From Eledone cirrhosa (taxonomy: Eukaryota), in the NCBI GenBank assembly GCA_964016885.1, contig OZ024751.1, forward strand, positions 16,368,001-16,432,000: 64,000 nucleotides of DNA, given 5' to 3'. The translations under genes and the position numbers were made by a program. Positions 3,016-56,690 of the stretch are shown in pieces. Every line of letters begins with the position of its first letter. The stretch's first letter is position 1. The notes under the pieces are model-generated. The model ran no database searches, was not told the DNA's origin, and worked only from the letters and a program-made list of their open reading frames with translations.

Positions 3016-3404
3016 ATGAGTTTAAGATATTTATATGGCACTATCTTTATATACAGTGTTCAAATCTGATAGAAGTCAAATGAGTTTAAGATATTTATAT
3101 GGCACTTGTCTTTATATACAGTGTTCAAATCTGATAGATGTCAAATGAGTTTAAGATATTTATATGGCACTTGTCTTTATATACAGTGTTCAAATCTGAT
3201 AGATGTCAAATGAGTTTAAGATATTTATATGGCACTTGTCTTTATATACAGTGTTCAAATCTGATAGAAGTCAAATGAGTTTAAGATATTTATATGGCAC
3301 CTGTCTTTATATACAGTGTTCAAATCTGATAGAAGTCAAATGAGTTTAAGATATTTATATGGCACTTGTCTTTATATACAGTGTTCAAATCTGATAGAAG
3401 TCAA
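3016..3404 (+). repeat. Minisatellite, 6 x 65 bp
   Basis: Unit ATGAGTTTAAGATATTTATATGGCACTTGTCTTTATATACAGTGTTCAAATCTGATAGAAGTCAA starts at 3016, 3080, 3145, 3210, 3275 and 3340. Confidence 0.95.
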
Positions 3405-10854: not shown

Positions 10855-11042
10855 TTGAACTAATGGTTCATCAACTGGTATTTATTCTGGCACTTTACAT
10901 TCTGAGTTCAAATCTCACCGATTTCTACTTCACTTTTCATTCTTCCTGGGTCAATAAAATAAATTACCGAGTAAATACTGAGATCAATATAATCAACTAT
11001 TTCTTCATATCGATTACAAAGTATTATTAATATCATTCATGA

Positions 11043-11705
11043 GGGCGGTTGATTGGCAGTATCGGTAGAGGGTCGGACGCCATGCTTTCCAGCATAGTTA
11101 CGTCTCTTTACGATCTGAGTTCAAATCCCGCCGAGGTTGACTTTGCCTTTCATCCTTACGGGGTCGATAAAATAAAGTACCAGTAATGCACTGGGATAAT
11201 TGCTGGCCTTGTGCCTAAAGTAGAAACAATTATTAGTATCATTCATATTTTAATATCATATTAATATCATTCATCATTTAAGGGCGGTGGATTGACAGTA
11301 TCGGTAGAAGGTCGGATGTCATGCTTTGCAGCATAGAGTTACGTCCCTTTACGATCTGAGTTCAAATGCCGCCCAGGTTAACTTTGCCTTTCATCCTTAC
11401 GTGGTCAATAAAATAAAGTACCAGTAATGCACTGGGATAATGGCTGGCATTGTGCCAAAAGAAGAAACAATTATTAATATCGTTCCTATTCGGGAAATGA
11501 ACTGGTGAAATCGTTAAAGCATCGGGTAAAATGCTTTGTAGCATTTAGTTATGGCCCTTTACGTTGTGATTTCAAATCCTGCTGAGGTCAAGTTAGCATC
11601 TTTTCTTTCCGGAGTTCATAGAATGAGGTACTACTAAAGTACTATGGTCGATGAAATCAAATTTTTCCTCCTACAATTTATTGACATTGCACCTATGTTA
11701 GAAAT
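11043..11705 (+). mobile_element. Three tandem SINE copies (third one diverged)
   Basis: 11043-11233, 11282-11473 and about 11490-11705. Confidence 0.85.
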
Positions 11706-12754: not shown

Positions 12755-13010
12755 GAATAATTGCCTTATGTTGTTTATTACATAATAATAATATATATAT
12801 ATATAGTATTGATTATACTATTTATGGTTATGCAAATACAAAAACCTTTTGTAGTTATATATATTTTTATAAACCCTAAATAGTGGTAGGCAGTAATATA
12901 CTACTACCCTATTACCAGTAAGTTAAATAGCTCAATGTAATAACATCAGATGATTTACAGAGCAGTTATATAAATTATAAGAATCAAAGAACTGTTCAAA
13001 ACATTTTTAT

Positions 13011-13055
13011 GCTTACAACTGTTTCCTCCAAACCGAGGTTTGGCTTCTTCGGAGC
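13011..13055 (-). ncRNA. Hammerhead motif (CCGAAGA variant), left arm of a fold-back
   Basis: GCT-CCGAAGA-[..CCAAACC tc GGTTTGG..]-GAA-ACAGTTGT-A-AGC. Confidence 0.55.
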
Positions 13056-13150
13056 AATTTATTATTGAATGAACACTTATATGACCTCCTTTTCACCCAT
13101 TTCTCTTGGGTGAAAAGGAGGTCATATAAGTGTTCATTCAATAATAAATT

Positions 13151-13195
13151 GCTCCGAAGAATCCAAACCTCGGTTTGGAGGAAATAGTTGTAAGC
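13151..13195 (+). ncRNA. Hammerhead motif (CCGAAGA variant), right arm of a fold-back
   Basis: GCT-CCGAAGA-a[TCCAAACC tc GGTTTGGA]g-GAA-ATAGTTGT-A-AGC. Confidence 0.55.
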
Positions 13196-13231
13196 ATAAA
13201 AATGTTTTGAACAGTTCTTTGATTCTTATAA

Positions 13232-13295
<64 letters not shown>

Positions 13296-15173: not shown

Positions 15174-15233
<60 letters not shown>

Positions 15234-15302
15234 TATGAAGAGAGAAGAAACATTTAGATATAATTAGTAATAAAATGTATCATACCTAAACTGTTCCTAA
15301 AT

Positions 15303-15390
15303 TCCTCGACTACGTAGTTTCGTGGCATAAACAAAAACAATATATCAAAGATATAGAGTCCTTGCGAGGTCTGCCGACTTATCAAGAGGA
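15303..15390 (-). ncRNA. Hammerhead ribozyme, U3-A8 core variant (inverted copy)
   Basis: Reverse complement of 16199-16286. Confidence 0.72.
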
Positions 15391-16198
15391 TACCTCATTT
15401 TACTAGTCTCAAGAACGCGTCTACACGACGTGAGAAAGAATCCCAAAAGGCGGAGGAGGAGACAGTCACGCGATATAACGGTCGAGAAACAGAGCTAGGC
15501 CTCTTATAACCACGAAGAAAATACCACGGAGGCGGAGGGGGTATTCATATCGAGGCCGTAGAAGAGGTAGTGAAGAAGGCGAGAAGTATGAGTAATGGAA
15601 GCTTTCCAGTTGTCCCCACACTTCAAAGATTGCTCGACCAGAGGGAGTTATTAATATATTTAGAAACACACAGATACATGCGGACACACACATATATACA
15701 TGAATGCATCCGCACCCATACATTTTATTACTAATTATATCTAAATGTTTCTTCTCTCTTCATAATGTATTTTTAACTCTGATACTGGTTCAGTCTGGTT
15801 CAAACTGAATTGGTCTGTCCCAGTGATTCATTGAGCAACATCGGTGAAGTTGGCACCCTTAACTCACAGTTGGGTGCGGATGCATTCATGTATATATGTG
15901 TGTGTCCGCATGTATCTGTGTGTTTCTAAATATATTAATAACTCCCTCTGGTCGAGCAATCTTTGAAGTGTGGGGACAACTGGAAAGCTTCCATTACTCA
16001 TACTTCTCGCCTTCTTCACTACCTCTTCTACGGCCTCGATATGAATACCCCCTCCGCCTCCGTGGTATTTTCTTCGTGGTTATAAGAGGCTTAGCTCTGT
16101 TTCTCGACCGTTATATCGCGTGACTGTCTCCTCCTCCGCCTTTTGGGATTCTTTCTCACGTCGTGTAGACGCGTTCTTGAGACTAGTAAAATGAGGTA

Positions 16199-16286
16199 TC
16201 CTCTTGATAAGTCGGCAGACCTCGCAAGGACTCTATATCTTTGATATATTGTTTTTGTTTATGCCACGAAACTACGTAGTCGAGGA
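16199..16286 (+). ncRNA. Hammerhead ribozyme, U3-A8 core variant with an extended stem II
   Basis: TCCTC-TTGATAA-[GTcGGCA..long insert..TGCCAC]-GAA-ACTACGTAGT-C-GAGGA. Stem III is a perfect 10-nt palindrome and the site is GUC. Confidence 0.75.
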
Positions 16287-16519
16287 ATTTAGGAACAGTT
16301 TAGGTATGATACATTTTATTACTAATTATATCTAAATGTTTCTTCTCTCTTCATAATGTATTTTTAACTCTGATACTGGTTCAGTCTGGTTCAAACTGAA
16401 TTGGTCTGTCCCAGTGATTCATTGAGCAACATCGGTGAAGTTGGCACCCTTAACTCACAGTTGGGTGCGGATGCATTCATGTATATATGTGTGTGTCCGC
16501 ATGTATCTGTGTGTTTCTA

Positions 16520-16556
<37 letters not shown>

Positions 16557-16801
16557 GTATATATATATATGGTGAAAGAGTGAAGAATAACATGCTCAAC
16601 AGTACAAAAAGGATTTTATTCACAGTATTACGCACACACACATATATATATATATGTATGTGTATATATGTATATATATATTATATATGTATATATATAT
16701 TGTATATATATATATATATATATTGTATATATATATATATATATTGTATATATATATTGTATATATATATATATATATATTGTATATATATATATATATA
16801 T

Positions 16802-16865
<64 letters not shown>

Positions 16866-16880
16866 TATATATATATATAA

Positions 16881-17178
16881 CCTCAGAGCTGTATGGGACC
16901 CTCCCAAACGTCAGCTCAAAAGTGACACAGAGGAGACTGAGGTTAGCTGGCCATGCTCACCGACATCTAGAGTTGACATTGCACTCAGTGATCCGGTGGG
17001 AGCCCCTACATGGACACACTGGAAGAGGAAGACCAATGTTAACGTATGTTGATGCCCTAAGGACAGACACTGGTCTGTTGGAGACGAAGGACATGGCAGC
17101 GATAATGAAGGACAGAGACCGCTGGAGAGAACTCGTCGATGAATCTCGGGAATTTTACCCGCCCTAGATAGATAGATA
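16881..17178 (+). mobile_element. 5'-truncated copy of the same RTE family inside a (TA)n array
   Basis: Encodes [26 protein letters not shown]...SREFYPP*, nearly identical to the C-terminus of the 18388-21522 ORF. Ends in TAGATAGATAGA. Confidence 0.92.
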
Positions 17179-18378: not shown

Positions 18379-21300
18379 CTAATCTATCTAAGGCGGGTAA
18401 AATTCCCGAGATCCATGGACGAGTTCTCTCCAGCGGTCTCTGTCCCTCATTATCGCTGCCATGTCCTGCGTCTCCAACAGACCAGTGTCTGTCCTTAGGG
18501 CATCAACATATGTTAACCTTGGTCTTCCTCTTCCAGTGTGTCCATGTAGGGGCTCCCAAAGGAGCACGGAGTGCAATGTCAACTCTGGATGTCGGTGAGC
18601 ATGTCCAGCCAACCTCAGTCTCCTCTGTGTCACTTTTGAGCTGACTTTTGGGAGGCTCCCATACAGCTCTGAGTTTTTCATCCTCAGTGTATACTGATTA
18701 ATGTTCAGAGCCATCCTCAGCATTCTCGTGTAGCACCCATCCACCATCTGAGTGAGTCTCTTGGTCAGTGTCCAAGTCTCAGACCCATACAGCAGCACAG
18801 ACTCCACTACAGCAATGAAGAGGCGGATTTTCAGGTCTCTACGAAGGTCCGACTTCCACACCGATCTCAAGCTGTGGCACGCCGCCCAGGCCTTGCTCTT
18901 CCTCTCAACCACATCATCTTCCGTATTCCCAATCTTTGCTCCCAAATACAGGAAGTCCTCAACCAATTCCAGCGGCTTCCCGCCTACATTAGTGATCCTC
19001 TCTGGCTTCTCAACATTCTCTACCAGATATTTTGTTTTAGTCTCATTCATTCTCAGCCCCACACTCATCGACACAGTCTCAACCTCCCGCATCAAATCCT
19101 CTGCCTCCTTCACTGTATTTGTCACCAAAACTATGTCGTCGGCAAATTCAGCATCCGATACCTTTTTCGCCCCAACTCTCCTGCTCTGAGCCGGTGCTAC
19201 AGTAAAGCCAGAGTCCTGGTGTTTCTCCAGTGCAAGGCGCATACAATAGTCCACTACGATGATAAAAAGGTAGGGAGCCAATGTATCTCCCTGGAGCACT
19301 CCAGCCAGTATCTCAAAGAACTCTGTCATCCCATCAGGTGTAATGACTTGGGCTTTGGTGTTGGTGTAGAGCAGTGATATCAGGTCCACTATCCTCTTGG
19401 GGATTCCATAAGCCTGTAAGATCTTCATCAGGCAGTAACGGTCCACAGAATCAAAGGCCTTCCTAAAGTCAATGAAAACCATGACCGCAGGAAGGCACTT
19501 TGCTCTAGCTCCCTCTAATATCCTCCTCAGCATCAGGATGTGACTGGTGGTTGATCTACCCTCTCTGAAGCCGTTCTGGTTGTCCCTGAGCTTCTTCTCC
19601 ATCTCAGGCTGGATCCTGTTAAGAATCATCCTGTTGAGGGTCTTTGCCACAAGTGACGTCAGTGAGATCCCCCGGTAGTTGTTGGTGTTAGAGAGATCTC
19701 CCTTCTTTGGCACTGGGACGATGTTACTGATCCTCCACTGATTCGGAGCAACTCCTTTCTCCAGTGCCCCGTTACAGAACCCCAGGATGATATCATCAAA
19801 ATCACACCACTTCATCACCTCTGATGCTACTCCTTCTTCTCCATGAGCCTTGCCCTCCTTGATCTTCTTCTTGGCTCTCTGAAGCTCCTCTCTGGTGAAG
19901 GGCTCTGTCTCAACATCCAGTTCCTCAAACAGCCGCCTGATCTCCCCAGTGCTCTGGGCTGTGGAGGGTGGCTCTCCTAGTAGGGTCCTAAAATGGTCTA
20001 GCCATTTCCTCTTCCTATCCTCGGGCCCCGTTCCCTGGATCTGACTCGAACACCTTTTCTTCCTCCCTGTGATCTCGTTGATGATCATCCAGCTCTCCTT
20101 ACATCCAGATCTGTCAACCGCTCTCTCCACACTTCTGATCTTCTCTATCAGTGCCTCCTCTCTGACCTCAGTGTAAGCGGTACAGAGCTCTTCCCTCATC
20201 ACCTCCACAGTCTCCATCCTCTCCTCCGTAGGATCAGCATAGAATTGGTCCCTGGCAGCTTTCAGGTGTTCTCTGGCTGCACACACTTTTGGGTCTGCAG
20301 AGCTGACGTGCTTCCCTTTGTTCTTTTTCCTCGGCACCAGGGTTTCACTTGCTTTCGCCACTGCATTGGTGAAGTGCCCGTACCTCCTCGTCACACTCTC
20401 CTCAGTCCATCCAATCTCTCTCTCCTCTGACTCTCCACACAGAGCACTAAACCTGTTTCTCACTTCCACTGTGAACCTCTCCTGTAGCTTATCATCTTCC
20501 TTGAAAGCTCCCCAGTCATAGATTGTTCTCCGGGGCTGAGCCTTGCTCTTTCTTAAGCTCACGCGGACCTCACTCATAACAAGCCGGTGGTCACTACCCA
20601 GTGTACTGAAATAGCTGTATGGTTCCGTGTTCAGAACACTATTCCGCCACTTTTTCCTCACCAGAATGAAATCAATCTGGGACTTGGACAGGTGCATATC
20701 TGAGATGTAGGTCCACATCTTCCCCAGATTCTTCCTAAACCTTAGGTTGGTCGCCATCAAGTTCGCCTCCAGCAGGGTGTCTCTCAGTAGTCTTCCATTT
20801 CGGTTGGTGTTGTTATGGAAGTACCAGCAAGGATCTTCACTGCCCTCCTTACTCAGATGTGCATTGAAGTCCCCCAAAACAAGCAGGATATTGTGTGCCT
20901 GAGTGGTGTTGACAGCTCTACACACTTCCTCATGGAACTCCTCGGCATTCACATCACTGTCCCCCTCGGTTGGACTATAGGCTGAGATGACTGTCAGTCT
21001 TGGGTTTCCATTGAAGGTCACCCTCAACACTCGCGGGGAGATAGGCATTATTTCCCTCACCAACAGATTGGTTTTTGCACTGAACACAAAACCCACTCCT
21101 CCTACTGCAGCATTTGTTGTGTTCTTCACTGCCGATGTAGTGATGAGCTGGCTCTTCCTCCCGATCATCACACTCCTCACGGGCTCATCGTGTAGAATCC
21201 TGTGTTCTTGGATCGCAAGTATCTGTATACCACTCTCCTCGAACAGATGTCCCAACTCCTCTCTCTTCTCCAGCGTTCGAATAGTCCTCACATTCAAAGT

Positions 21301-21697
21301 GCCCATTTTGATGGCTCTTCTGCAGGACAAAACTGCATTCTTTATATTTGTCTCAGAGACAGCTGATCCATCATCCACTGGCCCTCTCTGTGGCTCTAAG
21401 CCAGCAGAGTCATAACGACCAGGCTGCTCCTTGACAGTGTAATTAGGGGCTCTAACCCTAGTGCTGTTAGATCGACTCTCCATATTTCTTTTCAATGGCT
21501 GACAATACCTTACCGGCGCCACTCGAATAAGGTAGTTATTTAACCCATAAATGGAGCCCTAACAGGTACTACCACCCCGGGCCAGGGCAGACCTGGGAGT
21601 CATGACAACTAAGGGGTAACTCCATATTCCCCACATCTCCTGAACTCCCGAACTGGAGCCTTGCCACTGGATGTAGTTTAATGTCATACCCAAGACA

Positions 21698-25063: not shown

Positions 25064-25659
25064 GTATATATATATGTATGTATATATATGTATATATGCA
25101 TATATGTATGTATATATATATTGTATATATATGCAGAGGTAATATTTAATTTGTTGGGATTCAACAATCTTAAACATTTTTATAATTGATATAAACCACT
25201 CAACAGATTAGTGGAGTAAATACACAATATATTAATAAATGGAAACTATATTTATAAAACCATATTTATTTTATTATATATATTTCAAGGGCAGCAAGGC
25301 AAATTATGGTGCGCTTTCATCAAATAAAATACAGATTTGTTTTATAAATAAATATTGACATAACCGGAAAAAGACAACCTTAACGGTTGGAGCTTCCTGG
25401 ATAGTGGAGATAAAATTTTATTGAGGATAATACAACGTTATGAGCGAGTATGCAAATGAGTGTCCGAAAAGTTGAAAAGATAACGGTTTATTTAAATTAA
25501 ACTGTTGGAAGAAGAGGATATGTAAGGGAGAGCGAAAAAAAAAAGGAAGGAGAAAGAGAGAAGAAGAAAGAAAGAATGATTATACATTGTGATAGTGAAG
25601 ATAGTCAAGAGTGAACGAAGAAATAAATATTAATGGAAGAGTATAGAGCGTAAATATAT

Positions 25660-25975
25660 CATCGGGGTGTTCCATGCTGAACTTTATACTGGCGTCCATG
25701 CTGGAGAATGTTGTGTATATTTTATCCGCCTCCTCACGGGATGATGTAAGGATGAGTATGTCATCTACATATCGGGTAAAGAAGGTATGGGAATGGCAGG
25801 TGTTGAGAGCTCGGCATTCTAGCTGGTTCATATAGGTGATGGCCAGCAGGCCCGATAGGCTGTATCCCATGGGTAATGCTGTTGTCTGTCTGTATGTGTG
25901 GTGGTGGAAGGTGAAGTACGTGTTTTCCACTGTGAAGGACAAAAGCTGGTGTATGTCCGTCGGAAGGAGACCGTA
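25660..25975 (-). pseudogene. Penelope-like reverse transcriptase core fragment
   Basis: NTYFTFHHHTYRQTTALPMGYSLSGLLAITYMNQLE..FTRYVDDILIL..IKFSMEH corresponds to PLE RT motifs 4-6. Confidence 0.8.
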
Positions 25976-26084
25976 GCAGTAAATAATAGATATATTATGT
26001 ATATATGTATATATATATATATTATTTATAAATATATATTATTTATATATATATATATTATCTATATATTATATATATATATAA

Positions 26085-34643: not shown

Positions 34644-34686
34644 GTCACTGAAGAGGTCACAGAATGTGTGACGAAAGAACTTTGAC
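34644..34686 (+). ncRNA. Minimal hammerhead (family D)
   Basis: GTCA-CTGAAGA-g[GTCACA gaatg TGTGAC]-GAA-AGAACT-T-TGAC. Confidence 0.68.
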
Positions 34687-44021: not shown

Positions 44022-45270
44022 GACGGTGATGGATTGGTAGTATCGGTAGAGCGTTGGACAACATGCTGAGTGGCATATAGTTACATCCCTTTACGCTCTA
44101 AGTTCAAATCCTGCCTATGTTAGCTTTGCCTTTTATCCTTACGAGGTTGATAAAATAAACTATCTGTAATGTACTGGTGTTGTTTAATCGACTCTCCTCC
44201 TTCTCTTCAAATTTCTGGCCTTGAGCCCAATTTAGGAGCCGTTATATTTATTTAGAGGGTGGTAGATTGGCAGTATCGGTTGACATAGAGTTACTGCCAT
44301 TTACGTTCTGAGTTCAAATCCAGCCGATGTTAGCTTTGCTTTTCATCATTAGGAGGTCGATAACATAAAATAACAGTAATGCACTGGGGTCATTTTAATA
44401 GACTTTGCCTTTCCCCAAAATTGCTGGCCTTGTGCCTATATAAAAAACCCCATTATTATTAGTAGTATCGGTAGAGCGTCGGGCATGATAAGTGGCATAG
44501 AGTTACGAACCTTTACGTTCTGAGTTCAAATCCGGCCGAGCCTAGCTTTGCTGTTCATGCTTAGGGGGTCGATAAAATAAGGCCCAGTAATGCACTGGGG
44601 CCGATTTAATCGACTTTCCCTTTCCCCCAAAATTGCTGGCCCTGTGCCTATATAAGAGACCATTGTTATTAGGATGGTGGATTGGCAGTATCGGTAGAGG
44701 GTCGGACGCCATGCTTAGCAGCATAGTTACGTCCCTTTACGATCTGAGTTCAAATCCCGCCGAGGTTCACTTTGCCTTTCATCCTTACGGGGTCGATAAA
44801 ATAAAGTACCAGTAATGTACTGGGATAATTGCTGGCCTTGTGCCTAAAGTAGAAACAATTATTAAGATGGTGGATTGGCAGTATCGGTTGAGCGTCAGAC
44901 ATTATAAGTGGCATAGAGTTACGGCCCTTTACGTTCTGAGATCAAATGCCATCGAGGTTAACTTTGCCTTCCATCCTTACGGGGTCGATAAAATAAAGTA
45001 CCAGTAATGCACTGGGATAATTGCTGGCCTTGTGCCTAAAGTAGAAACAATTATTAAGATGGTGGATTGGCAGTAACGGTAGAGCGTCAGACATTATAAG
45101 TGGCATAGAGTTACGGCCCTTTACGTTCTGAGATCAAATTCCGGCGAGGTTAACTTTGCCTTCGATCCTTACGCAGTCGATAAAATGAAGTACCAGTATT
45201 TCACTGGGGGTCGATTTAATCGACTTTCCCTTTCCCAAAAATTGTTCGCATTGAACCTAAGTCAGACAAT
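44022..45270 (+). mobile_element. Head-to-tail cluster of about 6 SINE copies
   Basis: Repeated A box/B box/core units starting near 44022, 44255, 44460, 44672, 44867 and 45057. Confidence 0.88.
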
Positions 45271-49023: not shown

Positions 49024-49324
49024 GGGGAGCAAATAGAGATCGATAAAAGAAGTCCCAGACTTGGAAACGTAAAGTACTGAGGTCGATATGATTGATTAAT
49101 CAAAATAAGTGCTATCCCAGCATGGCAGCGCTTTAATAACCGATGCAAGTAATTGTAAAAGAAAGTAAAACAACATTTTTTTTTCAGTCAGAAACTCACT
49201 ATTCAGCAATTCCACGATTGACAGAATATTTTATTGATTCAAAACCTCATGTTCAATTGTATAATGTTTCGAAACAAAAACGAGAGAAAGAGACAAAAGG
49301 TTGAGAGGTGTTAGAAAGATTCTT

Positions 49325-49454
49325 TTTATTATTAGCTAGACGGTAAAATCTGTTTATTATTAGCTAGACGGTAAAATCTGTTTATTATTAGCTAGACGGT
49401 AAAATCTGTTTATTATTAGCTAGACGGTAAAATCTGTTTATTATTAGCTAGACG
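49325..49454 (+). repeat. Minisatellite, about 4.6 x 28 bp
   Basis: Unit TTTATTATTAGCTAGACGGTAAAATCTG. Confidence 0.93.
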
Positions 49455-49457
49455 TGA

Positions 49458-50640
49458 GGGCGGTGGATTGGCAGTATCGGTAGATGGTCGGATGCCATGT
49501 TTTAACATAGAGTTACGGTCCTTTACGGTCTGAGTTCAAATCCCGCCGGGGTTAACTTTGCCTTTCATCCTTACGGGGTCGATAAAATAAAGTACCAGTC
49601 ACGCACTGGGGCCGATCTAATCGACTTTCCCCTCCCCCCAAATTACTGGCCTTGGCCTATACTAGAAATCATTGACAGTATCGGTAGAGGGTCGGACGCC
49701 ATGCTTTGACGCATAGAGTCACGGCCCTTGCCATTCTGAGTTCAAATCCCGCCGAGGTTAACTTTGCCTTTCATCCTTACGGGGGCGATAAAATAAAGTA
49801 CCAGTAATGCACTGGGTAATTGCTGGCCTTGTGCCAAAAGTAGAAACAATTATTAGCTAGATGTGAGTGTAGTGCATTGGCAGTATCGGTAGAGCGTCGG
49901 ACACTATGATTTGCAGCATAGATTTACAGCTCTTTATGACCTGAGTTCAAATCCCGCCGGGGTAACTTTGCATTTCATCCTTACGGGGTCGATAAAATAA
50001 ATCATCAGTAACGTACTGGGGTCAATTTACTCGACTTTCCCCTCCCCAAAATTGCTGGCCTTGTCCCTATACTAGAAATCATTATTAGCTAGATGTGAAG
50101 GGCGGTGGATTGGCAGTATCGGTAGAGGGTCGGACGCCATGCTTTCCAGCATAGTTACGTCCCTTTACGATCTGAGTTCAAATCCCGCCGAGGTTGACTT
50201 TGCCTTTCATCCGTACGGGGTCGATAAAATAAAGTACCAGTAATGCACTGGGTAATTGCTGGCCTTGTACCTAAAGTAGAAACAATTATGCAGGGCGGTG
50301 GATTGGCAGTATCGGTAGAGGGTCGGACGCCATGCTTTCCAGCATAGTTACGTCCCTTTACGATCTGAGTTCAAATCCCGCCGAGGTTGACTTTGCCTTT
50401 CATCCTTACGGGGTCGATAAAATAAAGTACCAGTAATGCACTGGGTAATTGCTGGCCTTGTGCCTAAAGTAGAAACAATTATTAGCTAGATGTGAGTGTA
50501 GTGAATTGGCAGCATCGATAGAGCGTCGAATAACATGCTTTGCAGTATGTAGTTGCGGTTCTGTGTGTTCTGATTTCAAATTCTACCGAGTTTAGCTTTG
50601 CCTTACATACAACATTGGGGCGTTTTAATCGACGTTGTCC
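49458..50640 (+). mobile_element. Head-to-tail cluster of about 6 SINE copies
   Basis: Units near 49458, 49671, 49870, 50100, 50293 and 50500. The 50100 and 50293 copies are nearly identical. Confidence 0.88.
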
Positions 50641-53560: not shown

Positions 53561-53833
53561 TTGATAGTGGCGAGAATGGCTCGTGTAAATGGGCCTTCTC
53601 TGTATACCATCCTGTAGGTAAAGAAGTAAAGGAGAGGGGAGCACCTTCTCCATGTGCTCCCCGGGCAAAGGATTGCACACTTTTTCGGGGGTGTGTGCAA
53701 CCCCCATCACGTCCCCTCCCTTTTGAGGTTATTTTCGATTATTTTCATGTTACACCCTTTTTACTCGATTGTATGTAAACTCTCCCTTTGTATTTGTCCC
53801 TTCTTTTTATGCCTTTATGGTAAATAAAGAAAT
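53561..53833 (+). mobile_element. Short 3'-end copy of a related Tx1 subfamily in the same (TATC)n array
   Basis: AGTGGCGAGAATGGCTCGTGTAAATGGGCCTTC matches about 56377-56409. It has a similar 3' UTR ending AATAAAGAAATA(TATC)n. Confidence 0.85.
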
Positions 53834-53834
53834 A

Positions 53835-53873
<39 letters not shown>

Positions 53874-53875
53874 TT

Positions 53876-56690
53876 AGTAAGGTTCTAGCTGCGGATAGGA
53901 ATAGGAAGGAAAGGGAGCTAATAGATAGAGTAGAAGAGGCAATTAGAAGCGGCGACGTGGCCAGAGTGCTAGCGTCGAGAACGGCTTTGAGACAGTTTTT
54001 CGACGCGAAGCACGAAGGCTGCGTTGTCCGAAGTAAAATACGTGCTCTAGGGAACGAGGGGACCAAAGCTGTTAGCTGGGCCCGCGTGACAGAGGCCAAC
54101 AGTGGAACTAAATCCACCATCCGGTCTTTGCGAGACCTGGATGGACGGGCGATTCTTGAGCCTAAGCAGATGTGTGAGGCCTTTCAAAGGCACTTTGCCC
54201 GACTGTTCGGGAGGGGCGGTGAGCCGGTTGGGAACGTGGACTTCGGTCCATACCTCGACGGCCTGCCGCGCCTCTCGGACAGGGAGGCGAAGTCCTGCGA
54301 GGAGCCGATTTCGGCCGCTGAGATAGAGGACGTGCTGAGCCAATGCGGCAAACGCAAATCCCCGGGTCTCGATGGTCTTCCTTACGAATTATATCTAGCT
54401 ATGCCGGACTTGTTCCCCGATCTCCTCGAGGCGGTCTACTGCAACTGGCAACAGAACGGGAGAATTCCCTGTACTGTGACCAAGGGCGTAGTCACGCTAG
54501 TGAGGAAGGACGAGAACAAGGGGGACGAAATAAGTAACTTCAGGCCCATAACACTGCTAAATACAGAGTTACAGATTTTGGCCAAGGTGCTAGCAAAGAG
54601 GTTGGCGCTTGTCGTGGGCAACCTGGTGGGAGATGCGCAGACATGCGCTATCCCGTCCAGGTCCATCCATGACAACCTCCACCTCATGCGATACATCATA
54701 GAGAGGGTTGGGAACGAACCCGGCTTTGGTGGGGCTCTGATCAACTTGGATCAATCTAAGGCGTTCGATAGGGTCGACCATGGTTACCTGGATGCGGTGC
54801 TAGCGGCGGCAGGCTTCGGACCCGTTTTCAGGGGCTGGATCACTGCTATGCACAGCAGCCGCATCTGCTCTAGGGTCAAGGTGAACGGCTACCTCTCGGA
54901 GCCGTTCAAAATCGCGCGGTCCATCCGACAAGGGTGCCCTCTCTCCTCCCTTCTGTATGTGTTGACTCTCGAGCTACTACTGCGGAAGTTGGAGTTGTTG
55001 CAGGGCATCCCTTTGGAACCGGGATTGCGGAAAGCGGTGTCGGCCTACGCCGATGACGTGACAGTAATGGTGTCGACGGCCTCCGAAATCGAGGCGGTCG
55101 GCACCTTACTGGAGGAGTACGAAAAGTTCACAGGGGCTAAGCTGAACCGGGACAAGTCGATCGGTTTGCAACTCGGCACGTGGAGGGGCAGACCGATGCC
55201 CTCCGATGGCGTCGTCGGACGCTGGACGGAGGGCCCGGTGAAGTTGCTCGGGGTCTGGTTCGGACCGGACCTCCAGGTGGAGAAAAACTGGGCGGAGGTT
55301 ACGAACAGGGTGTTTGCACTGACCCAGAAGTGGGCCAGTTGCAAACTATCCCTGAAAGGTCGGGCGGAGGTGGCGAACACCTACATAGCGTCCGTCATCT
55401 ACTACCGCCTGACCGTAGTGCCCTGCCCAAGGGAAACGCTCACCAAGATGGAGCGCGCGCTCTTCCAATTCCTTTGGAAGAGGCGGGCTCCTATGGTGAG
55501 GAGATCCATCTGCTGTCAACACCCTTCGAAAGGAGGGCTGGGGATGCCGTGGCTAATGATGCGTAAACACGCATTAAGGCTACGCACCTCTACGTATTCC
55601 TCACCGGACAACCGGTGTGGGCCTCGTTTGTGAGACGAACCTTTCCCAGACTCGTCTCACTCACCGAGCTGCAATCCTGGGTCAAGCAAAGACCGAGAAA
55701 ACTGGGCGCCTGGCACACTGAGTGTGCCCAGGCGCTCACCGCCCTCTGGCAGGCGGATCCGGTTATCAGTGGAGACTCCACCGCAACATTCTATAGAGGG
55801 CTGGTGCGCAGCAGGTGCGACGACGCCCTCGGAGAAGCCCTAGACATGGAGGAGGACGAACTGGCCAGCCTGTTCGGTAGGACATTCAGCCCGGGACCTA
55901 TGGACAACTTCCAGAAGTCCCTGGCCTGGCAGTGCTACCAAGGGGCTTTACCCGTTCGAGAAAGGCTCTACAGACACGGGCGCCCGGGTAGGGACCCCGC
56001 CAAAAAGATCTGTCCCAGATGCGTGTGCGACGAGGAAACCGTTGCACACGCATTAGTACACTGCTCGGGCGTAGCCGATCTGTGGGGCTATGTTGAACAA
56101 CTGCTGTCAAGGGTGGGACCGATCCGGTTGACCACCGAGTCTATTGTAATGATCAAGCCGCCTCCCCCCTTCAAAGATGAAGCAGAGGCGGTGTTTCTGT
56201 GCGTAATAGCCATGGCGAAAGAGGTTGTATGGTGGACGCGTCTGAAAGGACTGAGGTCGGGCACCTTTCTCTCTGGCCAACAACTGGTCCGTTTCTTCCG
56301 ATATCATTTCGGAAGAAGGATCAGGATGGAGAGAGAGGTGCTGCACCCCAGCCGTTTCTATGAAAGATGGGTGAAAGTGGCGAGAATGGCCCGTGTGAAT
56401 GGGCCTTCACTCTACATCAGACTATAGGTGAGGAAGATGAAAGACCAAGGGAGCACCCCTTCTCTGTGCTCCTGAGGAGAAGGGTTGCACACCTTTTTCG
56501 GGGGTGTGTGCGACCCCCCAAGGCGCCTCCTCTCTATTGAGGATTTTGTTAAAAATTTATTTTTTGTTATATCTTATTTTATTTTTATATTTTGTTATTG
56601 CCTCCTCCTTATTGAGGACGCCTTTTTGTGTAAACTCCCCCCTTTGTACTTGTCCCACTTTTGATGCCCTAGTGGCTAATAAAAGAAATA
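53876..56690 (+). mobile_element. 5'-truncated Tx1/L1-clade LINE inserted in a (TATC)n microsatellite
   Basis: GC-rich block carrying the RT and zf-RVT parts of ORF2, without APE or ORF1. The 3' UTR ends AATAAAAGAAATA and (TATC)n flanks both sides. Confidence 0.88.
53957..56427 (+). pseudogene. Tx1-like ORF2 (RT + C-terminal zinc finger) split by one frameshift near 55585
   Basis: ORF 53957-55633 has KSPGLDG, NFRPITLLN, DQSKAFDRV, RQGCPLS, AYADD and KGGLGMP. ORF 55615-56427 has CPRC...ETVAHALVHC. Restoring one base near 55585 gives a continuous ..LRHLYVFLTGQPVWASF.. Confidence 0.85.

What the first reader, a model, noticed from the sequence alone, without database searches (positions are those of the whole stretch)
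15231..16525. 591-bp circularly permuted tandem unit with one hammerhead: candidate retrozyme / circular RNA footprint
Seen: segment order d-a-b-c-d-a-b on the plus strand (period exactly 591 bp), preceded by an inverted b-c-d copy. There is one U3-A8 hammerhead per unit, the copies are nearly identical (I noticed one substitution), both ends run into (TA)n, and there is no credible ORF. Inference: reverse transcription went more than once around a circular RNA of about 591 nt, or through tandem pLTRs, and then switched strand. This is longer than the animal non-LTR retrozyme monomers I recall (a few hundred nt).
Basis: partly seen in the sequence, partly recalled or inferred. Interest (0 to 1): 0.82.

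Follow-up and report, generated by a model that had tools for sequence, protein, structure and literature searches.

The report
Penelope-style hammerhead retrozyme insertion, two arms
This is one copy of a likely young and abundant non-coding 591-base repeat that carries a hammerhead ribozyme motif and sits back-to-back with an inverted copy inside a TA microsatellite, the layout that Penelope-type jumping genes leave; their enzyme likely copied it, probably from a small RNA circle, so the kind is known, but its many copies would make that long-proposed copying step testable.

Summary
A + arm of 1.37 periods (591+218 nt) and a 491-nt inverted arm sit back-to-back, both ending in (TA)n. The type I hammerhead has a U3-A8 core, a long helix II and a palindromic helix III (0 of 5000 shuffles); a sister contig's changes mostly keep its pairing. 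Public contigs show a high-copy, ORF-less family that closes on itself. This reflects collapsed genomic copies, not RNA. Both arms and both turns share alleles that are rare in the family, so they come from one template lineage. Partial tandem, inverted copy, (TA)n target, U3-A8 core and unit size are all published for Penelope-like elements or retrozymes. Each arm has only one hammerhead, so this locus cannot release a monomer. A circular template is plausible (about 50%) but not shown; an uncut multimer or a fold-back also fits. The scan noted this 591-nt family at other loci of this genome before. Verdict: new member of a known kind.

The parts
15176..15230 (.). (TA)n target, left side
15228..15718 (-). 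Inverted arm, 488-491 nt, equal to unit positions 15871-16361; its RNA-sense 3' end (E1) points outward into (TA)n; one private change at 15498
   Evidence: family state at 16091 equals the + arm in the X1 contig
15303..15390 (-). Hammerhead motif of the inverted arm (identical mirror of 16199-16286)
15718..16526 (+). Direct arm, 803-809 nt = 1.37 periods of 591 nt; its 3' end (E2) points into (TA)n
15718..15935 (+). First copy of the 218-nt stretch that is present twice (pLTR-like partial tandem); carries the rare allele at 15825, as does 16416
15936..16526 (+). One full 591-nt period; 41.6% GC; non-coding; strongly self-paired on the sense strand when folded as a circle
16193..16203 (+). Small hairpin that competes for the 5' strand of hammerhead stem I; unchanged in the sister contig
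   Evidence: (aligned span maps to 16189-16286)
16199..16286 (+). Type I hammerhead motif: stem I 16199-16203/16282-16286, U3-A8 core 16204-16210, extended helix II 16211-16267, GAAA 16268-16271, palindromic helix III 16271-16280, predicted cut after C16281
16358..16361 (+). E1: unit position of the inverted arm's outer end, 77-80 nt 3' of the cut site; 3-nt overlap with (TA)n
16452..16515 (+). Predicted long hairpin directly 5' of E2
16520..16526 (+). E2: outer end of the direct arm, 239-245 nt 3' of the cut site; 6-nt overlap with (TA)n; predicted single-stranded
16521..16570 (.). TA-rich target, right side

Best explanation
This is a single, likely recent insertion of a non-coding 591-nt hammerhead-bearing repeat (a non-LTR retrozyme type of element), laid down as two back-to-back arms in a (TA)n tract, most likely by a borrowed Penelope-like enzyme that would prime reverse transcription from both DNA ends at two internal sites of one RNA template, probably a circle. 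Shown: the layout, the hammerhead motif, the lack of an ORF, a family that closes on itself in public contigs, and rare alleles shared by both arms and both turns. Inferred steps: (1) tandem source copies are transcribed; (2) hammerheads cut, probably as dimers through the palindromic helix III or with protein help, because the monomer fold is predicted to be mostly off; (3) the monomer is ligated into a self-paired circle in which stem I is blocked; (4) a Penelope-like RT-endonuclease cuts (TA)n and starts at E2 (16520-16526) and E1 (16358-16361), perhaps helped by short TA overlaps; (5) both cDNAs run through the cut site, one for 809 nt and one for 491 nt, and are joined at their inner ends with a 1-nt overlap. 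Confidence is about 0.85 for a Penelope-mobilised retrozyme, 0.7 for two-ended priming and 0.5 for a circular template. The partner is unidentified; the Hydra clade is the best guess.
For: Layout; partial tandem, adjacent inverted 5'-truncated copy and (TA)n targeting are described for Penelope-like elements (PMC8557442). Mechanism precedent: the anole Penelope protein cuts and extends both strands, cuts AT-rich DNA and starts at two internal RNA sites (PMC11167929). Family: in run X3, which matches the window's unique flanks (180 and 161 nt with 0 differences at depth 2, 568 nt with 3 differences at depth 3.7), summed contig depth on the element is 70,000-324,000 at the 10 element positions listed. 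This is no copy number but points to thousands of copies or more. One contig each in X1 (621 nt) and X2 (620 nt) runs once round the unit and closes; contigs of X8 and X10 also cross 16308/16309. One template lineage: the window's letters at 15825, 16126 and 16132 are at most 0.2%, 0.8% and 1.2% of X3 depth, yet 15825 recurs at 16416 and the other two recur in the inverted arm. Ribozyme: 0 of 5000 shuffles. A sister contig in X8 has all 9 substitutions and 4 insertion sites within 16224-16260 and none in the rest of 16189-16286. Of 7 substitutions at paired positions 5 keep the pair (random rate 17 of 84), and the 2 at unpaired positions would add two pairs. Circle fold: -171.9 kcal/mol, z -7.0 sense against -1.6 antisense. 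Helix III self-duplex -12.9 kcal/mol.
Against: No circle, cleavage or expression is shown. The closed contigs are not RNA evidence: element and neighbouring SINE stand in a similar ratio in X1, X3, X8 and X10 (1:43, 1:42, 1:70-220, 1:41), so X1, X8 and X10 look like traces of the same kind of genomic DNA (X2 was not tested this way). Neither arm ends at the cut site, and both cross it, so cleavage is not visible in this insertion; in the anole element hammerhead mutants insert normally in vitro. The active fold is predicted rare in context: stem I probability below 1% for 14 of 14 transcript spans tried, and 8 kcal/mol above the free fold in the circle. 2 of the 7 paired-position changes in the sister contig break one terminal pair, and it is a single contig. 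1 of 8 control segments folded almost as well (z -6.0). E2-E1 is 159-168 nt, far above the 30-40 bp tail of known elements. The inverted arm is wholly contained in the direct arm, so a fold-back fits too. Fixed ends could not be tested without the genome. Contigs drop rare variants, so the allele shares are rough.
Confidence: 0.7

Rival explanations
1. Same element and enzyme, but the template was a linear, uncut multimer transcript from a tandem source locus. Twin priming on it needs about 2.1 units (1247 nt) with two uncut hammerheads, and no circle is involved.
For: The direct arm's inner end lies 50-53 nt past E1 of the previous turn, the overlap geometry of L1 twin priming (median overlap 12 bp; PMC12016303). 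The hammerhead is predicted mostly off. Uncut RNA is the dominant substrate for the anole enzyme in vitro. 8 of 9 Xenopus retrozyme dimers did not cleave in vitro.
Against: A rare allele sits in both turns (15825, 16416), so one unit was at some point copied into two turns, which a linear lineage explains only through an earlier circle, a template jump or conversion. The sense strand folds strongly over the whole unit. Circles are shown for coral, mussel and axolotl retrozymes.
Confidence: 0.35
2. One reading: one enzyme copied 809 nt from E2, then jumped back 152 nt onto its own cDNA and copied it for 491 nt (fold-back) before joining the left (TA)n.
For: 15871-16361 lies wholly inside the direct arm, and the arms share both rare alleles that they could share.
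Against: Only 1 nt of overlap at the inner junction. An adjacent inverted copy with an end that differs by a tail is the rule in Penelope-like insertions, and both strands are extended in vitro. Unchecked scan notes on other loci report two fixed ends.
Confidence: 0.15
3. An ordinary pLTR remnant: 5'-truncated debris of an autonomous Penelope-like element whose ORF lies elsewhere.
For: Retrozyme units are homologous to pLTRs in Xenopus. The window holds other Penelope-like debris.
Against: The family's majority path closes after 590-591 nt without an ORF. No Pfam match in 9 frames. The 48-aa frame before E2 hit only 2 unrelated repeat proteins among 1.84 billion. 0 of 5 short motifs were found in the Naiad/Chlamys/Hydra supplement (a weak test, because line breaks and cut runs can hide matches).
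Confidence: 0.07
4. Assembly or library artefact (missed-adapter palindrome or false duplication).
For: No listed piece spans the whole insertion or its inner junction (tables were cut).
Against: The two flanks differ, the left flank is matched in X3, the arms differ at one base and are separated by a non-palindromic 152 nt, and the tandem junction stands in contigs of four runs.
Confidence: 0.03

Closest known systems
Metazoan non-LTR retrozymes (Cervera and de la Pena 2020, PMC7229834, parts 2-4 of 6 read; Li, Clavereau and Pollet 2026, bioRxiv 10.64898/2026.07.22.740005, parts 1-3 of 5 read)
   Same: Non-coding repeat unit with one type I hammerhead, GC below 50%, self-paired fold, high copy number, size within 51-972 bp, Penelope-like elements proposed as the mobiliser.
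   Different: U3-A8 core and 57-nt helix II. The hammerhead is predicted blocked in the circle, which the 2020 paper reports for plant retrozymes and viroids rather than for most animal ones. Here only 1.37 turns, with an inverted arm; neither text as read describes two-armed retrozyme insertions. RNA not shown.
Endonuclease-bearing Penelope-like elements, Hydra clade in particular (Craig et al. 2021, PMC8557442; passages, section 11, supplement parts 2 and 24 of 59 read)
   Same: Partial tandem, adjacent inverted 5'-truncated copy, (TA)n target, hammerhead near the 3' end. Helix III closely resembles the listed Hydra-clade ones. An octopus Hydra family is listed. Long loop II has precedent in two spike-moss families.
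   Different: No RT or GIY-YIG ORF; end offset 159-168 nt against 30-40 bp; no sequence match found to the listed families.
U3-A8 minimal hammerheads of Schistosoma mansoni Penelope-like elements (Cervera and de la Pena 2014, PMC4209133, parts 1-2 of 4 read)
   Same: Same core covariation (about 1,300 hits there), short helix I, palindromic helix III, pairs of motifs on opposite strands 100-700 bp apart, circular-template proposal.
   Different: Helix II is far longer here (7-8 bp there), helix III has 3-4 bp, and the motif sits in a self-closing 591-nt unit.
Poseidon element of the green anole in vitro (Frangieh et al. 2024, PMC11167929, parts 1-2 of 4 read)
   Same: Two internal start sites 3' of the hammerhead, AT-rich cuts, both strands extended.
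   Different: There the starts are close together and without homology to the target; here they are about 160 nt apart with 3-6 nt TA overlaps.
L1 twin priming (PMC12016303, passages read)
   Same: Two opposed cDNAs; the end of the direct cDNA overlaps the start of the inverted one.
   Different: No poly(A) tail, template is a repeating unit, overlap 50-53 nt against a median of 12.

Membership tests
Non-LTR retrozyme | Type I hammerhead motif in the unit | tested here: met
   (motif and structure-keeping variation; not an Rfam hit)
Non-LTR retrozyme | Head-to-tail repeating non-coding unit of tens to hundreds of bases, GC below 50% | tested here: met
   591-nt period, 41.6% GC; closed contigs; no coding match
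Non-LTR retrozyme | Many genomic copies | tested here: met
   X3 depth 70,000-324,000 against 2-3.7 on unique flanks; order of magnitude only
Non-LTR retrozyme | At least two consecutive hammerhead-bearing units at the locus ('active' copy of Li et al.) | tested here: not met
   one hammerhead per strand: this locus is an offspring-type copy. Longer arrays of the family are reported only in unchecked scan notes
Non-LTR retrozyme | Highly self-paired monomer | tested here: met
   z -7.0 sense, -1.6 antisense; 1 of 8 controls reached -6.0
Non-LTR retrozyme | Self-cleavage in vitro | not testable with these tools
   folding predicts a mostly blocked monomer
Non-LTR retrozyme | Expressed as linear and circular monomer RNA | not testable with these tools
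   needs RNA data
Non-LTR retrozyme | No tRNA primer site or polypurine tract of LTR elements | not tested
   no scan run; both ends abut (TA)n directly
Autonomous Penelope-like element | ORF with RT and GIY-YIG endonuclease | tested here: not met
Penelope-like insertion footprint | Partial tandem with adjacent inverted 5'-truncated copy | tested here: met
Penelope-like insertion footprint | (TA)n target (Hydra, Naiad) | tested here: met
Penelope-like insertion footprint | Two fixed ends 30-40 bp apart (tail) | tested here: inconclusive
   offset here is 159-168 nt; whether the ends are fixed needs other copies
Penelope-like insertion footprint | Sequence homology to the pLTR of an autonomous partner | tested here: inconclusive
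   0 of 5 short motifs in one supplement; no genome to search

The most novel reading that the evidence does not exclude
The insertion records two Penelope-like reverse transcriptases working on one 591-nt RNA circle from both sides of a cut in (TA)n. Each arm stops 50-65 nt after passing the other arm's start site (50-53 past E1, 59-65 past E2), and both arms and both turns carry the same rare alleles, one of them an A-to-G change that RNA editing could have left. If this stopping rule recurs across the family's thousands of insertions, it would be direct genomic evidence for circular-template reverse transcription, and would explain how Penelope-like tandems and inverted copies arise.
Probability: 0.3. 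Interest if true: 0.72.

Novelty: new member of a known kind. Interest (0 to 1): 0.42.

Why it matters
How Penelope-like elements rebuild tandem and inverted copies is still open, and copying round a ribozyme-made RNA circle has been proposed since 2014 without a demonstration in the texts read here. A young family with thousands of near-identical, ORF-less copies gives thousands of junctions on which fixed starts, arm lengths and shared private alleles can be counted. It also ties animal retrozymes to Penelope machinery by insertion footprint, not only by homology. The hammerhead (U3-A8, long helix II, upstream blocking hairpin) is a compact object for a cleavage assay. This single locus is a modest example: multi-turn arrays of the family would carry more information.

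Tried and rejected
Rfam: 0 matches at gathering score in the window; 23 matches at E up to 10 in 15200-16560, none a hammerhead. Own genome: none held, so no copy-by-copy test of ends. Runs: 20 holders in 16 studies under 17 organism codes; no RNA holder listed, which says nothing about expression. I first read the closed X1/X2 contigs as possible RNA circles and the many organism codes as possible horizontal transfer. Hi-C run X22 (about 1 in 100 read) gave 5 partial reads under 90% alike, none on the hammerhead; not interpretable. Contig depths of X8 along the unit (112, 245, 213, 203, 326, 191) fall after E1 and after E2 as fixed ends would predict, but contig depth cannot rank parts and 10 pieces were not shown, so it is not used as evidence. 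Metagenome scan with a 14-base pattern: 113 loci, best 20 alignments to the unit only 16-34 nt, chance matches. Viral contigs: 0. A relic of an endonuclease C-terminus in the 48-aa frame at 15783-15926: rejected. A co-transcriptional window for monomer cleavage: not supported. The bacterial promoter scan is irrelevant for an animal; no promoter was identified. Scan look-up by sequence found 0 look-alikes, near 0, relatives only 2 microsatellite notes. Literature searches listed no paper on cephalopod retrozymes or on two-armed retrozyme insertions; subscription papers and the preprint's supplements were not seen and may bear on this.

Full report
What is there. The window is AT-rich, microsatellite-dense animal DNA. 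Earlier scan notes call the genome a cephalopod; the SINE at 11042-11490 resembles an octopus SINE from my recall only. Between (TA)n at 15176-15230 and a TA-rich tract from 16521 lie two opposed arms. The direct arm, 15718-16526, is 809 nt: 15718-15935 recurs at 16309-16526 without a mismatch, so the period is 591 nt and the arm is 1.37 periods. The inverted arm, 15228-15718, is the reverse complement of 15871-16361 with one mismatch (15498). In RNA sense both 3' ends point outward into the microsatellite, with overlaps of 3 nt (E1, 16358-16361) and 6 nt (E2, 16520-16526). The inner junction overlaps by 1 nt.

The ribozyme motif. A type I hammerhead lies at 16199-16286, mirrored at 15303-15390. 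It has a 5-bp stem I, a U3-A8 core, 57 nt between the core halves, a palindromic helix III and a predicted cut after 16281. The descriptor matched 0 of 5000 shuffles of the unit, though I wrote it after seeing the motif. Rfam does not detect it. In isolation the active fold costs 1.1 kcal/mol, and the 57 nt fold into one long bulged helix II. One 151-nt contig in run X8 (depth 50) aligns to 16189-16286 and differs by 9 substitutions and 4 insertion sites, all within 16224-16260. Five of 7 substitutions at paired positions keep the pair (random rate 17 of 84), 2 break one terminal pair, and the 2 at unpaired positions would close an internal loop with new pairs. This supports the long helix, on one contig. 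Against easy cleavage: an upstream hairpin (16193-16203) takes the 5' strand of stem I, which then has under 1% probability in 14 of 14 spans tried, and the active fold costs 8 kcal/mol in the circle. Helix III self-pairs at -12.9 kcal/mol, so dimer or protein-assisted cleavage is the likely route, as for Penelope hammerheads (PMC4209133; PMC11167929; PMC6765202 passages).

Not coding. The longest frame round the unit is 86 aa. Nine frames gave no Pfam match at cut-off. A 48-aa frame before E2 that looked like an endonuclease end hit only 2 unrelated repeat proteins. Folded as a circle, the sense strand gives -171.9 kcal/mol, z -7.0 (0 of 60 shuffles as low), the antisense z -1.6. Seven of 8 control segments gave z between -1.6 and 1.2, and one LINE segment gave -6.0.

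The family. No genome is held, so I used public runs. Twenty runs hold the unit; I laid 5 of them and one Hi-C run. X3 matches unique flanks of the window at depth 2-3.7 and the element at 70,000-324,000. Summed contig depth is no copy number, but the gap points to thousands to tens of thousands of units. In X1 and X2 a single contig of 621 or 620 nt runs once round the unit and closes, with 3 and 5 differences. X8 and X10 also cross the tandem junction. So the majority path of the family is a closed 590-591-nt cycle with no ORF. This is not RNA evidence: element and SINE stand at 1:43 in X1, 1:42 in X3, 1:41 in X10 and 1:70-220 in X8, so X1, X8 and X10 look like traces of the same kind of DNA in which only high-copy repeats survive.

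One template lineage. At 15825, 16126 and 16132 the window's letters make up at most 0.2%, 0.8% and 1.2% of X3 depth, and X1, X2, X8 and X10 show the other letter. Yet the 15825 letter recurs at 16416, and the other two recur in the inverted arm. Both arms therefore come from one template or source. A single unit carrying a rare allele was at some point copied into two successive turns, which a circle does naturally; a template jump, conversion or a homogenised source would also do it. Contigs drop rare variants and the mirrored positions were not listed, so these shares are rough. The 16126 change is A to G in RNA sense, compatible with editing, but it is a single case.

How it most likely arose. 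A partial tandem with an adjacent inverted 5'-truncated copy, an end offset and a (TA)n target is the described layout of Penelope-like insertions (PMC8557442). The anole Penelope protein cuts AT-rich DNA, extends both strands and starts at two internal RNA sites that match the genomic ends (PMC11167929). I therefore infer two cDNAs primed from the two sides of a cut in (TA)n, at E2 and E1. Both cross the ribozyme cut site, so the template was uncut there: a ligated circle, or a multimer of about 2.1 units. The direct arm stops 50-53 nt past E1 of the previous turn and 27 nt short of the next cut site. The inverted arm stops 59-65 nt past E2. The first figure is the overlap geometry of L1 twin priming (PMC12016303 passages). 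The symmetry of the two stops would suit two enzymes on one circle, but it is one locus and was noticed after the fact. The two-enzyme wording came to me from earlier scan notes; the Penelope reading was mine before I opened them.

Comparison with the known. Animal non-LTR retrozymes are tandem, non-coding units with a type I hammerhead, expressed as circles in coral, mussel and axolotl, with Penelope-like elements as proposed mobiliser (PMC7229834). Units range from 51 to 972 bp and are homologous to pLTRs in Xenopus (bioRxiv 10.64898/2026.07.22.740005; no mollusc among its 35 genomes). U3-A8 cores and the circular-template proposal date from 2014. Hydra-clade elements target (TA)n, have similar helix III, and include an octopus family; long loop II occurs in two spike-moss families. 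Five short motifs of the unit were not found in that supplement, and I saw no resemblance by eye to the octopus Naiad ends. What differs: the combination of U3-A8 with a 57-nt helix II, a predicted block in the circle, and an end offset of 159-168 nt against 30-40 bp. This locus fails the 'active copy' definition, having one hammerhead per strand. Seven searches listed nothing on cephalopod retrozymes or two-armed retrozyme insertions.

Earlier scan findings. Notes on other pieces of this genome describe 591-nt U3-A8 arrays (three notes), a 595-nt unit, and 310-, 320-, 422-, 467- and 478-nt families with the same two-armed layout. They are unchecked; I confirmed the one-template claim at this locus and could not test fixed ends.

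Verdict. Real, young and of a known kind: a Penelope-mobilised retrozyme-type element, interesting mainly as material for testing circular-template reverse transcription. Interest 0.42.

Noticed in passing
window 12967-13239: A second back-to-back pair: 133-nt arms (3 mismatches, 7-nt centre), right arm ending in (TA)n. One frame has a C-x-H-x-N word near the end that by eye resembles the end of a Hydra-clade ORF in the supplement.
   Followed up: partly
window 13375 (-) and 17824 (+): Two more type I hammerhead motifs with the usual C3-G8 core within 2 kb of the finding; the second is a minimal one with the bulge before helix II. Looser matches at 34648 and 38190 are two copies of one repeat.
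   Followed up: no
window 18388-21558 (-) and 16879-17173 (+): LINE with an open 1056-aa endonuclease-RT frame (RTE-like by recall), and an inverted 295-nt copy of its 3' end, 94% alike, 1.2 kb away.
   Followed up: no
window 25580-26038 (-): 152-aa RT fragment (Pfam RVT_1, E 5e-11) that looks Penelope-like by recalled motifs; no link to the unit shown.
   Followed up: no
window 53828-56427 (+): GC-rich LINE in two frames; 54200-54790 folds far better than shuffles (z -6.0), unexplained.
   Followed up: no
window 11042-11490, 44033-45208, 49818-50482: A very high-copy SINE-like repeat occurs in head-to-tail runs with periods of 192-241 nt.
   Followed up: no
window 16241 (run X8 loose end): A contig joins the helix II region from a different upstream sequence that holds a word like the canonical core followed by a small hairpin; possibly a sister family with C3-G8, unexplained.
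   Followed up: no
window 15934 and 16392: Length variants of the unit: a 3-nt insertion next to E2 (about a fifth of X3 depth) and a 590-nt form in X2.
   Followed up: no
window 3016-3404 and 49321-49454: Young minisatellites: 65 nt x 6 (98%) and 28 nt x 4.8 (99%).
   Followed up: no
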